Assembly: GCA_964016885.1 (NCBI GenBank)
Contig: OZ024753.1
Location: forward strand, 24,614,001-24,678,000
Direction of reading: 5' to 3'
DNA length: 64,000 bases
Source: Eledone cirrhosa
Taxonomy: Eukaryota
Positions 12,467 to 52,860 of the stretch are shown here, one piece after another. The notes under the pieces are model-generated. The model was given only the letters and a program-made list of their open reading frames with translations, was not told the origin of the DNA and made no database searches. Each line of letters starts with the position of its first letter. Within the stretch, counting starts at the first letter, position 1. A program made the position numbers and the translations under genes.

Positions 12467-15016
12467 GATAACATGGTACATATTACAGTAATACAATGGT
12501 TCTATTGATAACATAGTACTGTGTGTTCATTACAGTAATACACTGGTTCTATTGATAACATAGTACTGTTCATTATAGTAATACACTGGTTCTATTCATA
12601 ACATAGTACATATTACAGTAATACAATGGTTCTATTGATAACATAGTACTGTGTGTTCATTACAGTAATACACTGGTTCTATTGATAACATAGTACTGTT
12701 CATTATAGTAATACACTGGTTCTATTGATAACATAGTACTGTTCATTATAGTAATACACTGGTTCTATTGATAACATAGTACTGTTCATCAGTAATACAC
12801 TGGTTCTATTGATAACATATTACTGTTCCTTATAGTAATACACTGGTTCTATTGATAACATAGTACTGTTCATCAGTAATACACTGGTTCTATTGATAAC
12901 ATATTACTGTTCATTATAGTAATACACTGGTTCTATTGATATTTGCTGGCCTTGTGCCTAAAGTAGAAACAATTATAGTAATACACTGGTTCCATTGATA
13001 ACATAGTAGTGTTTATTACAGTAATACACTGGTTCTATTGATAACATAGTACTGTTCATTATAGTAATACAGTGGTTCTATTGATAACATAGTACTGTTC
13101 ATTATAGTAATACACTGGTTATATTGATAACATAGTACTGTTCATTATAGTAATACACTGGTTCTCTTGATAACATAGTACTGTTCATCAGTAATACACT
13201 GGTTCTCTTGATAACATAGTACTGTCCATTATAGTAATACACTGGTTCTATTGATAACATAGGACTGTTCATAAGTAATACACTGGTTCTATGGATAACA
13301 TAGTACTGTTCATTATAGTAATACACTGTTTCTATTGATAACATAGTACTGTTCATTATAGTCATACACTGGTTCTATTGATAACATAGTACTGTTCATC
13401 AGTAATACACTGGTTCTATTGATAACATAGTACTGTTCATTATAGTAATACAGTAAGGCGGTGGATTGGCAGTATCGATAGAGGGTCGGATGCCATGCTT
13501 TCCAGCATAGTTACGTCCCTTTACGAGCTGAGTTCAAATCCCGCCGAGGTTGACTGTGCCTTTCATCCTTACGGGGTCGATAAAATAAAGTACCAGTAAT
13601 GCACTGGGTAATTGCTGGCCTTGTGCCTAAAGTAGAAACAATTATAGTAATACAATAGTTCTATTGATAACATAGTACTGTTCATTATAGTAATACACTG
13701 GTTCTATTGATAACATAGTACTGTTCATTATAGTAATACACTGGTTCTATTGATAACATAGTACTGTTCATTATAGTAATACACTGGTTCTATTGATAAC
13801 ATAGTAATGTTCATTATAGTAATACACAGGTTCTATTGATAACATAGTACTGTTCATCAGTAATACACTGATTCTATTCATAACAGAGTACTTTTCATCA
13901 GTAATACATTGGTTCTATGCATAACATAGTACTGTTCATCGGTAATACACTGGTTCTATGGATAACATAGTACTGTTTGTTATAGTAATACACTGGTTCT
14001 ATTGATAACATAGTTCTCTTCATCATTAATACACTGGTTCTATTGATAACATAGTACTGTTCATAAGTAATACACTGGTTCTATTGATAACATAGTGCTG
14101 TTCATTATAGTAATACACTGGTTCTCTTGATAACATAGTACTGTTCATTATAGTAATACACTGTTCCTATTGATAAACATAGTACTGTTCATTATAGTAA
14201 TACACTGGTTCTATTGATAACATATTACTGTTCATTATAGCAATACACTGGTTCTATTGTTAACATAGTACTGTTCATTATCGTAATACACTGGTTCTAT
14301 CGATAACATAGTATTGTCCATTATAGTAATACAGTGGTTCTATTGATAACATAGTACTGTTCATTATAGTAATACACAGGTTCTATTGATACCATAGTAT
14401 TGTTCATTATAGTAATACACTGGGTCTATTGATAACATAGTACTGTTCATCAGTAATACACTGGTACTATTGATAACATATTACTGTTCATTATAGTAAT
14501 ACACAGGTTCTATTGATAACATAGAACTGTTCATTACAGTAATACACAGGTTCTATTGATAACATAGTACTGTTCATTACAGTAATACACTGGTTCTATT
14601 TATAACATAGTACTGTTCATTATAGTAATACACTGGCTCTATTGATAACATAGTACTGTTCATTATAGTAATACACTGGTTATATTGATAACATAGTACT
14701 GTTTATTATAGTAATACACTGGTTCTATTGATAACATAGTACTGTTCATTATAGTAATACAGTGGTTCTATTCATAACATAGTACTATTCATTACAGTAA
14801 TACACTGGTTCTATTCATAACATAGTACTGTTCATCAGTAATACACTGGTTCTATTGATAACATATTACTGTTCATTATAGCAATACAGTGGTTCTATTG
14901 ATAACATAGTACTGTTCATCAGTATATACACTGGTTCCATTGATAACATAGTACTGTTCATTATAGTAATACAGTGGTTCTATTGATAACATAGTACTGT
15001 TCATTATAGTAATACG
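12467..15016. repeat. 43-bp satellite array (~55 copies, with 41-bp variants)
   Basis: Consensus ACTGTTCATTATAGTAATACACTGGTTCTATTGATAACATAGT; period 43 checked at 13681/13724. Confidence 0.97.
13453..13640 (+). mobile_element. tRNA-derived SINE family B (Meta-domain-like core), inserted in the satellite
   Basis: B-box GAGTTCAAATCC; core GCCTTTCATCCTTACGGGGTCGATAAAATAAAGTACCAG; flanked by 14-bp direct repeat ATTATAGTAATACA (13439-13452, 13641-13654). Confidence 0.88.
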
Positions 15017-15025
15017 CTGTTTCAG

Positions 15026-46907: not shown

Positions 46908-47000
46908 ATATATAAATATATAACGAAGGAGATGTGGTAAGGAACCAGATAATGCACCAGAGTACTCAATACTTAGGGTAGTAGAGAGGGTAATAGGAAA

Positions 47001-47108
47001 AAGTATGACCTCGACGGCAGAGCTCAAGCCCTTTCAACGGTTATTTCTGGACTAAATTATAATTTTTAGCCTGGTAAATAAATAGCAGAACTTATCAAGG
47101 GGGTACTT
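47001..47108 (-). ncRNA. Second, more damaged copy of the U3-A8 hammerhead in the left arm
   Basis: Minus strand keeps UUGAUAA, GAAA and GCCGUC, but stem III starts GGGC (mismatch). Confidence 0.5.
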
Positions 47109-47623
47109 CCTTATATGGGAAGATTGTAGTTGTCAAGAGGATTAGTCAAAAATTTGTTGTAAACACAAGTGTCTATCATGGCATTTGGTGGGAGGTAGGG
47201 GTGGATAACTTGCCTGTAGAACAATGAAGGAGTGGGTGGAGCCGGTCAAGCGTTGAAAATGAGATCTATACAGCAGATTCTAAGGATAGTGTATGAAAAG
47301 TCAAAGAACTTTCTCACTATCTATTTTATATATTTTTTTATATTTCTTTCTATTATTTTTTATTGTCTCCTACTCTCATCTGATTTACCTATTCTATACC
47401 CTCCTCCATTTTCTCCAGAACAATTCTTTGACTTTTCATACACTATCCTTAGAATCTGCTGTATACATATCATTTTCAACGCTTGACCGGCTCCACCCAC
47501 TCCTTCATTGTTCTACAGGCAAGTTATCCACCCCTACCTCCCACCAAATGCCATGATAGACACTTGTGTTTACAACAAATTTTTGACCAATCCACTTGAC
47601 AACTACAATCTTCCCATATAAGG

Positions 47624-47732
47624 AAGTACCCCCTTGATAAGTTTGGCTATTTATTTACCAGGCTAAAAATTCTAATTTAGTCCAGAAATAGCTGTCGAAA
47701 CGGCTTGGGGCTCTGCCGTCGGAGTCATACTT
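47624..47732 (+). ncRNA. Type-I hammerhead motif with variant core UUGAUAA (U3-A8)
   Basis: AAGUACCCCC-UUGAUAA(47634-47640)-long stem II (GGCUAUUU/AAAUAGCU)-GAAA(47697-47700)-CGGC-uuggggcucu-GCCG-UC^(47720)-GGAGUCAUACUU; stem I imperfect. Confidence 0.7.
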
Positions 47733-47754
47733 TTTCCTATATATATATATATAT

Positions 47755-49948: not shown

Positions 49949-52860
49949 CTACAGTAGCCCAGACTTCAATGTAGCAAAGAAGAGACTGATCCTCAGGTCT
50001 TTACGAAGGCCCAACTTCCACACCAATCTGTGGTATGTTGCCCAGGCTTTGCTCTTCCTCTCGACCACATCATCTTCTGTATTCCCAATCTTTGCTCCCA
50101 GATACAGGAAGTCCTCAATCAACTCTAGTGGCTTCCTGCCTACATTCGTAATCTTCTCTGGCTTCTTAATATTCTCTACCAGATACTTCATCTTACTCTC
50201 ATTGATTCTCAGCTCCACACTCATCGACAGTCTCCACCTCCTGCATCAAATCCTCTGCCTCCTTCACTGTGTTTGTCACCAGAACTATGTCGTCGGCAAA
50301 TTCAGCATCCGATATCTATTTTGCCTTAACTCTCCTGCTCTGAGCCGATGTTACAGTAAAGCCGGAGTCCTGGTGTTTCTCTAACGCAAAGCGCATACAA
50401 TAATCCACTGCGATGATAAAAAGGTAGGGAACCAATGTATCTCCCTGGAGCACTCCAGCCAGTATCTCAAAGAACTCTGTCATCCCACCAGGTGTAATGA
50501 CTTGGGCTTTGGTGTTGGTGTAGAGAAGTGATATCAGGTCCACTATCTTCTTGGGGATTCCATAAGCCTGTAAGATCTTCATCAGGCAGTGACAGTCCAC
50601 AGAATCAAAGGCCTTCCTAAAGTCAATGAAAACCATGACAACAGGAAGGCTCTTTGCTCTAGCTCCCTTTAATATGCTCTTCAGCATCAGGATGTGACTG
50701 GTAGTTGATCTACCATCTCTGAAGCCATACTGATTGTCCCTGAGCTTCTTCTCCATCTCGGGCTGGATCCTGTTAAGAATCATCATCCTGTTGAGGGTCT
50801 TTGCCACAAGTGACGTCAGTGAGATCCCCCTGTAGTTGTTGATGTTAGAGAGATCTCCCTTCTTTGGCACTGGGATGATGTTACTGATCCTCCACTGATT
50901 CGGGGCAACTTCTTTCTCCAGTGCCTGGTTACAGAACCCCAGGGTGATATCATCAAAATCACACCTCTTCATCACCTCTGATGCCACTCCATCTTCTCCA
51001 TGAGCCTTTACCTCATTGATCTTCTTCTTGGCTCTCTGAAGCTCCTCTCTGGTGAAGGGTCCTGTCTCAATATCCAGTTCCTCAAACAGCCGTCTAATCT
51101 CCCCAGTGTTCTGGGCTGTGGAGGGCTGCTCTCTTAGTAAGGTAATAAAATAATCTAACCATTTCCTCTTCCTATCCTCAGGCCCTGTTCCATAGATCTG
51201 ACTCGAACACCTACTCTTCCTCCCTGTGATCTCGATGATCATCCAGCTCTCCCTACACCCAGACCTGTCAACTGCTCTCTCCACACTTCTGATCTTCTCT
51301 AGCAGTACACCCTCTCTGGCCTCAGTATAAGCGGTACAGAGTTCATCCCTCATCACCTCCATATTCTCCTTTCTCTCCTCCGTAAGATCAGCATGGAATT
51401 GGACCTTGGCAGCTTTCAGGTGTTCTCTGGCTGCACACACTTTTGGGTTTGCAGAGTTGACGTTCTTCCTCTTCTTCTCTCTCCTTGGCACCAGAGTCTC
51501 ACTTGCTTCCGCCACTGCAGTGGTGAAGTACCCGTACCTCCTCGTCACACTCTCCTCAATCCCTCCAATCTCACTCTCCTCAGTCCCTCCAATCTCTCTC
51601 TCCTCTCTCTCTCCACACAGAGCACTGAACCTGTTCCTCACTTCTACTGTGAACCTCTCCTGTAGCTTATCATCTTCCTTGAAAGCTCCCCAGTCATAGA
51701 TTGCTCTCCGGGGCTGAGCCTTGCTCTTTCTTAAGCTCACCCGGACGTCACTCATAACAAGTCGGTGGTCACTACCCAGTGTACTGAAATAGTTGTATGG
51801 TTCTGTGTTCAGAACACTATTCTGCCAATTTTTCCTCACCAGAATGAAATCAATCTGGGACTTGGACAGGTGCATATCTGAGATGTAGGTCCACATCTTC
51901 CCCGGATTATTCCTAAACGTTAGGTTGGTCGCCATCAAGTTTGCCTCCAGCAGGGTGTCTCTCAGTAGTCTTCCATTTCGGTTGGTGTTGTTATGGAAGT
52001 ACCAGAAAGGATCTTCACTGCTCTCCTTACTCAGATGTGCATTGAAGTCTCCCAGAACAAGCAGGATGTTGTGAGCTTGTGTGGTGTTGACAGCTCTACA
52101 CACCTCCTCATAGAATTCCTCTGCACTCACATCACTGTCTCCCTCGGTTGGTCTATAGGCTGAGATGACTGTCAGTCTTGGGTTTCCCTTGAAGGTCAAC
52201 CTCAACACTTGTGGGGAGACATGTATGATTTCCCTCACCAACAGATTGGTTTTTGGCTGAAAACAAAACCCACTCCTCCTACTGCAGCATTCGCTGTGTT
52301 CTTCACTGCTGATGTGGTGATGAGCTGGCTCCTCTTCCCAATCATCACTCTCTTCACGGGCTCATCATGTAGGATGCTGTGTTCTTGGATCGCAAGTATC
52401 TGCATACCACTCTCCTCGAACATATGACCCAACTCCTCTCTTTTCTCCAACGTCCGAACAGTCTTCATATTCAGAGTGCCCATGTTAATGGCTCTTCTGC
52501 AGGACAAAACTGTATTCTTTATATTTGTCTCAGAGACAGCTGATCCATCATCCACAGGCCCTCCCTGTGGTTCTAAGCCAGCAGAGTCATAACGACCAGA
52601 CTGCTCCTTGACAGTGTAGTTAGAGGCTCTAACCCTAATGCTGTTAAATCGACTCTCCATGGTTCTTTTCAGTGGCTGATAATACCTTACCAGCGTCACT
52701 CGAATAAGGTAATTATTTAACCCATAAATGGGGCCCTAACAGGTACTACAACACCGGGCCAGAGCAGACCTGCGAGTAGTAACAACTAAGGGGTAACTCC
52801 ACATTCCCCACAGCTGCTGAACTCCTGAACTGGAGCCATGCTACTGGATAACTGAGTTAT
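49949..52860 (-). mobile_element. RTE-clade (RTE-X-like) LINE with APE endonuclease and reverse transcriptase, frameshifted, 3' end missing
   Basis: APE motifs GTLN, AIQEH, GGVGF, SAY.PT, LGDFNA, QIDFIL, SDHR; RT motifs PKKGDL..NYRGISL, FIDFRKAFDS, GVLQGDTL.PYLF, FADD (~50290), FLYLG; split over ORFs 52235..52699, 50316..52241 and 49949..50224; 5' boundary approximate. Confidence 0.93.

What the first reader, a model, noticed from the sequence alone, without database searches (positions are those of the whole stretch)
47624..47732. Hammerhead with a naturally compensated catalytic core (UUGAUAA, U3-A8)
Seen: where CUGAUGA is expected the sequence is UUGAUAA in both arms of the hairpin (47634-47640 plus; 47092-47098 minus). 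In the plus copy it is followed by a long stem II, GAAA, a 4-bp stem III (CGGC/GCCG) and a GUC site. Known: C3 and G8 form a Watson-Crick pair in the active hammerhead, and U3-A8 is a tolerated, uncommon swap. Inference: two changes that exactly preserve this pair argue for function, and standard CUGANGA motif searches would miss this family. Stem I is imperfect in both copies (GGAG vs GAGG, suggesting an ancestral GGGG).
Basis: partly seen in the sequence, partly recalled or inferred. Interest (0 to 1): 0.82.

Follow-up and report, generated by a model that had tools for sequence, protein, structure and literature searches.

The report
Retrotransposon hammerhead with wandering core pair
This is a decayed copy of a likely self-cutting RNA at the end of a known kind of jumping gene; its swapped core base pair is already published, but older and younger copies in this genome show that pair drifting through paired and mismatched states while the element kept spreading, which would make the role of the cutting testable.

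Summary
In detail: a type I hammerhead with a UUGAUAA core lies in both arms of an inverted pair. It is the terminal ribozyme of a Hydra-clade Penelope-like retrotransposon; both window copies are decayed. U3-A8 itself is known (Perreault 2011; Schistosoma PLEs, Cervera 2014), and this scan found it before on other DNA of this genome. Of 5,178 genomic matches about 4,000 are U3-A8, about 1,100 carry a C3·A8 mismatch, and an old subfamily is U3·G8 (22 of 24); the oldest relatives are canonical C3-G8. Two trees place the C·A subfamilies on the trunk between older and younger U-A subfamilies, so the pair went C-G, U·G, U-A, C·A, U-A. Twelve other core positions and a loop III palindrome never changed. 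Best reading: a conserved but probably slow, assisted ribozyme whose 3-8 pair tolerates any pyrimidine-purine combination, and whose cleavage is not strictly needed for copying. No cleavage or expression data exist. I found no paper reporting such natural intermediates.

The parts
47310..47738 (+). Direct, 5'-truncated arm of a Hydra-clade Penelope-like element (end of 3' UTR plus pseudo-LTR), ending 18 nt 3' of the cleavage site in (TA)n
   Evidence: 76+35 sampled copies end at +17 or +19
46922..47308 (-). Inverted arm of the same insertion, with the longer 'tail' end about 91 nt 3' of its cleavage site (family mode +97)
47614..47623 (+). CC(A/T)6GG box kept in 11 of 13 subfamily consensuses; CArG-like (label recalled), candidate promoter element
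   Evidence: in family G a similar box is seen further upstream
47630..47633 (+). Stem I, 5' strand (CCCC)
47634..47640 (+). Core positions 3-9, U3 U4 G5 A6 U7 A8 A9
47641..47696 (+). Long stem II: G10.1-C11.1, small internal loop, 9-bp helix, variable apical hairpin
47668..47680 (+). Zone where most genomic copies are cut off at their 5' side; inferred RNA start (initiator-like TTAGTC, label recalled) inside stem II
   Evidence: 35,616 / 12,400 / 5,272 matches as the pattern is extended 13 nt upstream
47697..47700 (+). Core G12 A13 A14 A15.1
47700..47719 (+). Stem III (5 bp) and loop III; the family loop is 9 nt with a GAGCUC palindrome, broken in this copy
47720..47720 (+). C17, predicted cleavage after this base
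   Evidence: hammerhead numbering
47721..47724 (+). Stem I, 3' strand (GGAG; family GGGG)
47001..47110 (-). Second, more decayed hammerhead copy (core 47092-47098, C17 at 47013; six private changes in the compared stretch up to stem I, including C11.1 and C15.2)

Best explanation
The motif is the terminal type I hammerhead of a Hydra-clade Penelope-like retrotransposon, and across the element's history in this genome its 3-8 core pair has been C-G, U·G, U-A, C·A and U-A again while the rest of the core stayed fixed, so it is likely a slow, assisted ribozyme whose cleavage is not strictly needed for copying. Shown: the element context, the subfamily states, their order on two trees, the two fixed 3' ends downstream of the cut site, the sharp 5' boundary inside stem II. 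Inferred working cycle: RNA starts inside stem II of an upstream pseudo-LTR, so only the downstream ribozyme of a transcript is complete; reverse transcription starts about 18 or 97 nt 3' of the cut site; running off the RNA start gives the tens of thousands of mini inverted pairs, whereas long copies such as the two window arms need a template that is continuous across the cut site (uncut, re-ligated, or reached by a template jump). Under that cycle a weakened 3-8 pair costs little and is repaired late. The two window arms were probably intact at insertion and have since decayed.
For: Element: full copy with two ribozymes 3.1 kb apart around an RT + C-terminal GIY-YIG frame (L035); intact 784-aa frames and 3,542-bp tandem units in the youngest subfamily; Hydra motifs match PMC8557442 section 11. 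States: (5,178 total; 53 not A8; 1,123 not U3 with A8, 97 of 100 listed C3); free-core pattern in register: 22 C3, 77 U3, 98 A8, 0 C3-G8 of 100 listed; E 24 of 24 U3, 22 of 24 G8, 0 A8; F about 94 U3 and 93 A8 of 100 listed of 168; G 10 of 12 C3 and 12 of 12 G8 among cores read from similarity hits. Order: endonuclease DNA tree and non-coding tree with positions 3-9 removed give the same ladder; a single U-A clade is rejected (p-AU 3e-55; 3e-5). Arm-to-arm divergence broadly follows the ladder (G 0.18, A 0.040, AC 0.044, C 0.021, B 0.004). Constraint: 0 changes at 12 other core sites and at the 6-nt palindrome over 10 consensuses, 86 changes at 110 non-core columns, 4 at N7. Literature: catalytic mutants of a PLE hammerhead did not affect insertion in vitro and cleavage needed the protein (PMC11167929); PLE minimal hammerheads cleave poorly (PMC4209133).
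Against: No cleavage, expression or RNA-end data: no RNA run was listed. [quoted passage not shown] Core invariance could partly reflect overlapping promoter or initiation signals, since the 3' half lies at the inferred RNA start. Several subfamilies (AC, C, Cp, D) were first found with patterns that demanded core bases; free-core patterns showed no altered subfamily but only the first 100 places are listed. Stem covariation is modest (score 0.145, 3 of 500 shuffles; pairs with double changes 4, 224 of 500; family G is out of register in that alignment). The deepest steps rest on one G and two F endonuclease copies with a long G branch, so whether U-A arose once or twice from U·G is unresolved. 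Age estimates use 1 to 22 pairs per subfamily and non-random loci.
Confidence: 0.6

Rival explanations
1. Strict compensation: fast cleavage needs a Watson-Crick 3-8 pair; mismatched subfamilies survived only because an active partner RNA cut them in a dimer formed through the palindromic loop III.
For: Each non-Watson-Crick state was followed by a return to U-A; about 77% of matches are U-A; the GAGCUC palindrome is invariant and two stem III strands are predicted to pair 13-17 kcal/mol more stably than two hairpins; U-A subfamily A and C·A subfamily AC have similar ages (0.040, 0.044). Single C3G or G8C changes abolished cleavage of a PLE hammerhead (PMC11167929).
Against: The C·A state spans several successive starred trunk nodes and roughly a quarter substitution per site of neighbouring non-coding DNA; subfamily C (0.021) is younger than A; only transitions occur at 3 and 8, and two sites drifting between C/U and A/G would be paired half the time by chance; positions 3 and 8 changed at least as often as non-core sites. 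Any self-complementary hairpin gives a favourable dimer energy.
Confidence: 0.2
2. The fold is kept as a scaffold (protein binding, promoter, reverse-transcription start) and catalysis is vestigial; the 3-8 pair drifts because cleavage no longer matters.
For: Over a thousand C·A copies; both insertion ends lie 3' of the cut site; unprocessed RNA was the dominant substrate and no reads ended at the cut site in PMC11167929; several consensuses have a competing hairpin as MFE (AC, C, Cp, D).
Against: U4, G5, A6, A9, G12, A13, A14 and C17 stayed fixed from family G to B while N7, the one free core position, took all four bases; U4-A9 lie upstream of the inferred RNA start, so they are not part of the 5' start region; the hammerhead fold is within 0-3.5 kcal/mol of the MFE for nine of eleven consensuses.
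Confidence: 0.2

Closest known systems
U3-A8 minimal hammerheads of Schistosoma mansoni Cercyon PLEs (Cervera and de la Pena 2014, PMC4209133; parts 1-2 of 4 read)
   Same: Type I hammerhead in a PLE pseudo-LTR; U3-A8 instead of C3-G8 (about 1,300 hits there); short stem I; G10.1-C11.1; palindromic helix/loop III; copies on opposite strands 100-700 bp apart.
   Different: Here stem III is a 5-bp helix with a 9-nt loop and stem II spans 56 nt; no extra base between 9 and 10.1; the paper text read does not describe U·G or C·A subfamilies. Its figures and supplements were not seen.
Hydra clade of C-terminal EN+ Penelope-like elements (Craig et al. 2021, PMC8557442; section 11, passages, supplementary files S1/S2 and Fig. 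S7 text read)
   Same: RWR (RWK-like), DKT, CxCX5C linker, CxxC and CxH around the conserved E and N, no CCHH, (TA)n targets, inverted 5'-truncated copy with a one-sided tail, hammerhead at the 3' end.
   Different: All Hydra hammerheads tabulated in File S2 have C3 and G8 and a tiny stem III; Hydra-1_Obim has a different ribozyme and protein; units here are 3.1-3.5 kb (most Hydra under 3 kb); tail about 80 nt rather than 30-40.
Poseidon PLE of Anolis carolinensis, PAc (Frangieh et al. 2024, PMC11167929; passages and main text part 2 read)
   Same: Two internal reverse-transcription starts 3' of the hammerhead that define the tail; AT-rich targets; extension on both strands.
   Different: Other clade; canonical C3-G8 core; ORF starts inside stem II there, well downstream of the ribozyme here.
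Natural U3-A8 core covariation (Perreault et al. 2011, PMC3088659; passages read)
   Same: Reports U3-A8 in several natural hammerheads and cites in vitro activity.
   Different: Core mismatches were filtered out as cryptic mutants of repeats; no evolutionary series.

Membership tests
Type I hammerhead ribozyme | Three-way junction with stems I, II, III in type I order | tested here: met
   Constrained folds 0-3.5 kcal/mol above MFE for 9 of 11 consensuses (I 10.7, F2 8.5); window arms 6.5 and 16.3
Type I hammerhead ribozyme | Core U4 G5 A6 A9, G12 A13 A14, A15.1-U16.1, H17, free N7 | tested here: met
   0 changes at 12 sites, 4 at N7; free-core listings
Type I hammerhead ribozyme | Watson-Crick pair between positions 3 and 8 | tested here: inconclusive
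   Met in the window copies and about 4,000 of 5,178 matches; not met in about 1,100 C·A copies and in subfamily E
Type I hammerhead ribozyme | Match to an Rfam hammerhead model | tested here: not met
   No hammerhead family among 73 rows at E<=1
Type I hammerhead ribozyme | Self-cleavage after C17 | not testable with these tools
   No RNA run listed; needs an assay
Type I hammerhead ribozyme | Stem I-stem II tertiary contact | not tested
   A 6-8-nt bulge in stem I and an internal loop in stem II recur in the folds, contact not modelled
Hydra-clade PLE | Single ORF, RT followed by C-terminal GIY-YIG | tested here: met
   784-aa frame with DIESYY, GATDSAE, YRDDG and VIY..YIG; no Pfam or PDB hit; atlas neighbours carry HTH_animal, GIY-YIG, RVT_1 in part of their members; by-eye match to Fig. 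S7 rows
Hydra-clade PLE | RWK-like, DKT, CxCX5C, CxxC and CxH motifs; no CCHH | tested here: met
   RWR, DKT, CNCPDRSIC, CNLC, CKH, one Cys in the GIY-YIG core against section 11
Hydra-clade PLE | Insertion into (TA)n; tandem and inverted structures with one-sided tail | tested here: met
   same two ends in contigs of independent runs
Hydra-clade PLE | Placement in the Hydra clade on an RT tree with reference proteins | not tested
   Reference proteins were only readable in the supplement; no tree with them was built

The most novel reading that the evidence does not exclude
The genome preserves a complete fossil path of a compensatory change in a ribozyme active site, both intermediates included, and the path reflects tuning for slow cleavage: because copying starts downstream of the cut, a fast ribozyme destroys the template for long copies, so U·G, U-A and C·A cores are tolerated or favoured, with cleavage rescued when two element RNAs pair through a conserved 2+6+1 palindromic loop (the layout recalled for the HIV-1 dimerisation loop), the same dimer supplying the two templates of each inverted insertion.
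Probability: 0.2. Interest if true: 0.8.

Novelty: new variant of a known kind. Interest (0 to 1): 0.5.

Why it matters
What PLE hammerheads do is open: they are near-universal in canonical PLEs yet dispensable in the one in vitro system. Here one lineage offers four natural 3-8 states in an otherwise fixed core and nearly the same scaffold, each with known copy number and relative age, and a young subfamily with intact protein. Cleavage rates can be set directly against transposition success. It is also an unusually clear natural record of how a paired change in a catalytic RNA core crosses its unpaired intermediates. The U3-A8 swap alone would be ordinary.

Tried and rejected
Rfam scan: no hammerhead hit. 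Pfam: 0 families for five family fragments and the intact frame, one weak GIY-YIG hit for another element; PDB sequence search: nothing. Sequencing runs: no RNA holder listed; laying contigs of 2 of the 4 listed runs gave the two known 3' ends and no information on RNA. Rejected: that C3·A8 is a deleted T in a C-run (in-register C3 in 22 of 100; a few deletions do occur, e.g. L163); that in-lineage C3-G8 copies are an ancestral subfamily (5 of 5,178, scattered single changes on C·A backgrounds); that C·A came by recombination of another ribozyme onto the element (non-coding tree repeats the coding tree); a shifted register with N7 deleted (no support, N7 takes all four bases in place); Naiad, Neptune or Nematis assignment (domain order and motifs). 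The first subfamily classifier mislabelled groups ('C' is B/B0, 'C2' is C) and was replaced; core counts are biased by how loci were fetched and are not used as frequencies; C2 and B0 consensuses show G8 for that reason, so the position 8 count is not used. Papers not held: Przybilski and Hammann 2007, Martick and Scott 2006, Lunse et al. 2017; they may hold data on C3U, G8A or further PLE variants. Searches for prior reports: 'hammerhead + U3-A8' 1 paper; 'C3U + G8A' 1 unrelated use; 'C3-A8/U3-G8/C3A8/U3G8/U3A8' nothing relevant; 'hammerhead octopus Penelope' 5 papers, 4 listed.

Full report
1. Observation. The same motif lies on the minus strand (core 47092-47098) in the other arm of an inverted repeat. 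Rfam reports no hammerhead in the window.

2. What it belongs to. The window lies in a 3.0-Gb animal genome; a DNA search with the motif gave 3,133 candidates, 40 scored, at 95-96% identity. Longer copies extend into an RT plus C-terminal GIY-YIG frame, and L035 has two ribozymes 3.1 kb apart around it. A protein search revealed a younger sister subfamily with intact 784-aa frames and head-to-tail units of 3,542 bp. The motifs RWR, DKT, CxCX5C, CxxC, CxH, the missing CCHH and (TA)n targets match the Hydra clade (PMC8557442 section 11; Fig. S7 text). Pfam and PDB gave no hit; atlas neighbours are mostly unnamed, with GIY-YIG or RVT_1 in part of some clusters. The window locus is one insertion: a direct arm ending 18 nt past C17 and an inverted arm with the longer tail. 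In the sampled copies these two ends are the modes, +17/+19 (111 copies) and +97 (54 copies), and they recur in contigs of public runs.

3. The window copies are decayed. Against the subfamily A consensus the plus arm has two CpG-type changes in stem II, a broken loop palindrome and G1.3>A; the minus arm has six private changes up to stem I, including C11.1>U and C15.2>G. The hammerhead fold costs 6.5 and 16.3 kcal/mol above the MFE, against 1.1 for the consensus.

4. A pattern spanning the ribozyme with 3, 7 and 8 free matched 5,178 places, control 0. Position 8 is not A in 53 (5 C3-G8, 22 U3·G8, 11 C8, 15 U8). Position 3 is not U, with A8, in 1,123, of which 97 of the 100 listed are C3. That leaves about 4,000 U3-A8. 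A pattern with positions 3 to 10.2 all free and fixed flanks gave 5,206 matches; of 100 listed, 77 U3, 22 C3, 1 G3; 98 A8, 2 G8; no C3-G8. In subfamily A, 99 of 100 listed (of 559) are U3 and 99 are A8, with N7 65 C, 31 A, 3 U, 1 G. Older groups: E has U3 in 24 of 24, G8 in 22, A8 in none; F has about 94 U3 and 93 A8 of 100 listed of 168, with a small U·G/C-G branch; G, reached from a C3-G8 hit and then by similarity, has C3 in 10 and G8 in 12 of 12 cores read (query and one pattern-selected locus left out).

5. Order. A tree of about 700 nt of endonuclease DNA from 31 copies (of 36 picked; 5 too short or unalignable) is a ladder: G, F, E, A-type, AC, C2, C, then D and B. Holding A, B and D together is rejected (p-AU 3e-55; the group was named after seeing the tree and included one D copy with a private C3). 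A second tree from the 330 nt of non-coding DNA around the ribozyme with positions 3-9 removed, 36 copies, repeats the ladder, puts the window copy in the A grade, and again rejects a U-A clade (p-AU 3e-5; four rows have long branches from truncation). Arm-to-arm divergence of inverted pairs: G 0.18 (1 pair), F2 0.14 (1), F 0.059 (2), E 0.047 (1), AC 0.044 (2), A 0.040 (22), Cp 0.029 (2), D 0.023 (4), C 0.021 (4), B 0.004 (4). So the pair went C-G, then U·G, U-A, C·A and back to U-A; whether F reached U-A separately from A is unresolved. The C·A phase is on the trunk that gave the youngest subfamily.

6. What is conserved. Over ten consensuses on that ladder, the 12 other core sites and the GAGCUC palindrome of loop III show 0 changes, N7 4, position 3 two, and 110 non-core columns 86 (a Poisson estimate gives about 1e-4 for the core, 1e-2 for the palindrome, but stems are included among 'non-core' and some subfamilies were found with core-containing patterns). 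Free-core listing of the 3' half shows only scattered single changes (92 of 100 intact at 11.1-15.1, 96 at C17). Stem II has double changes between F and A (G-C/A-U, U-A/G-C, U-A/A-U) and stem I has G-C in G against C-G elsewhere; the formal score is modest (0.145; 3 of 500 shuffles; best of the slid controls 0.080).

7. Copy anatomy. The 3' half of the ribozyme matches 45,682 places, the 5' half about 5,200 in the comparable backgrounds. Extending one pattern upstream by 4 and then 13 nt drops the count from 35,616 to 12,400 to 5,272, after which it is flat. In 40 regions taken from the list, leaving out places already known to carry the 5' half, all 77 copies stop within 24 nt upstream of the stem II 3' strand, most as tiny inverted pairs. 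The simplest reading is an RNA 5' end at an initiator-like TTAGTC inside stem II (consensus recalled); a reverse-transcriptase stop at the apical hairpin is the alternative.

8. Mechanism. Both insertion ends lie 3' of the cut, as do the initiation sites of the anole element, where catalytic mutants still inserted and cleavage needed the protein (PMC11167929). Long copies therefore need RNA that is continuous across C17. A ribozyme that is useful but slow fits an invariant core with a loose 3-8 pair. In a type III scan only the G3-C8 swap was active (PMC9901934), so C·A and U·G are expected to be weak. Rivals are strict compensation with dimer rescue through the palindrome, and a catalytically vestigial scaffold. 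Nothing here shows cleavage.

9. Novelty. U3-A8 is in print for natural hammerheads (PMC3088659) and for PLEs (PMC4209133); Hydra hammerheads in File S2 of PMC8557442 are all C3/G8. The scan noted U3-A8 Hydra ribozymes in this genome before. The amplified C·A and U·G subfamilies and their order were not in the papers found nor in the short summaries of earlier notes shown; three relevant papers were not held, and figures and supplements of Cervera 2014 were not seen. Papers seen: PMC4209133 parts 1-2 of 4; PMC8557442 passages, section 11, supplement parts; PMC11167929 passages and main text part 2; PMC3088659, PMC9901934, PMC7151607, PMC6765202 passages; PMC2920678 part 1 of 2; bioRxiv 10.64898/2026.07.22.740005 part 1 of 5.

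10. Verdict. Real motif, known family, known swap, decayed copy; the worthwhile result is the natural series of core states. New variant of a known kind, interest 0.5.

Noticed in passing
window 58888-59151 and 60130-60393: Another inverted pair (98%) between (TA)n tracts carrying a minimal hammerhead with a canonical CUGAUGA core (60290 region) and a tiny palindromic stem III; probably a different Penelope-like family.
   Followed up: partly
window 54855-55166 (+): Fragment of a different Hydra-like GIY-YIG endonuclease, 40% identical to the family studied; weak Pfam GIY-YIG hit.
   Followed up: partly
window 50316-52735 (-): Broken LINE-type frame with endonuclease-like and RT-like motifs (681-aa open stretch); not examined.
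   Followed up: no
window 15028-40524, 12482-15023, 62717-64000: Satellites of 19 bp (about 1,310 copies), 43 bp and 46 bp; the last two contain TTGATAA or CTGATGA but no GAAA or stems in hammerhead order.
   Followed up: partly
window 43203, 45063, 46552, 47753, 55518: tRNA-like SINE heads flank the insertion and recur in the window.
   Followed up: no
genome-wide; L326-L365: Tens of thousands of mini inverted insertions hold only the 3' half of the ribozyme and stop within about 13 nt inside stem II.
   Followed up: yes
loop III of all subfamilies; L256-L285 for family G: 9-nt loop built as 2 + GAGCUC + 1; flanks vary (AA, CG/CA, UU), the palindrome does not; in family G the layout is AA-palindrome-A, as recalled for the HIV-1 dimerisation loop.
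   Followed up: partly
window 47614-47623 and relatives: CC(A/T)6GG box kept while its inner A/T bases vary between subfamilies.
   Followed up: partly
L070, L071: At least five head-to-tail 3,542-bp units of the youngest subfamily, several with intact frames.
   Followed up: partly
L082-L111: Several further hammerhead families with canonical cores and long stems II or III, unrelated in sequence to this one.
   Followed up: no
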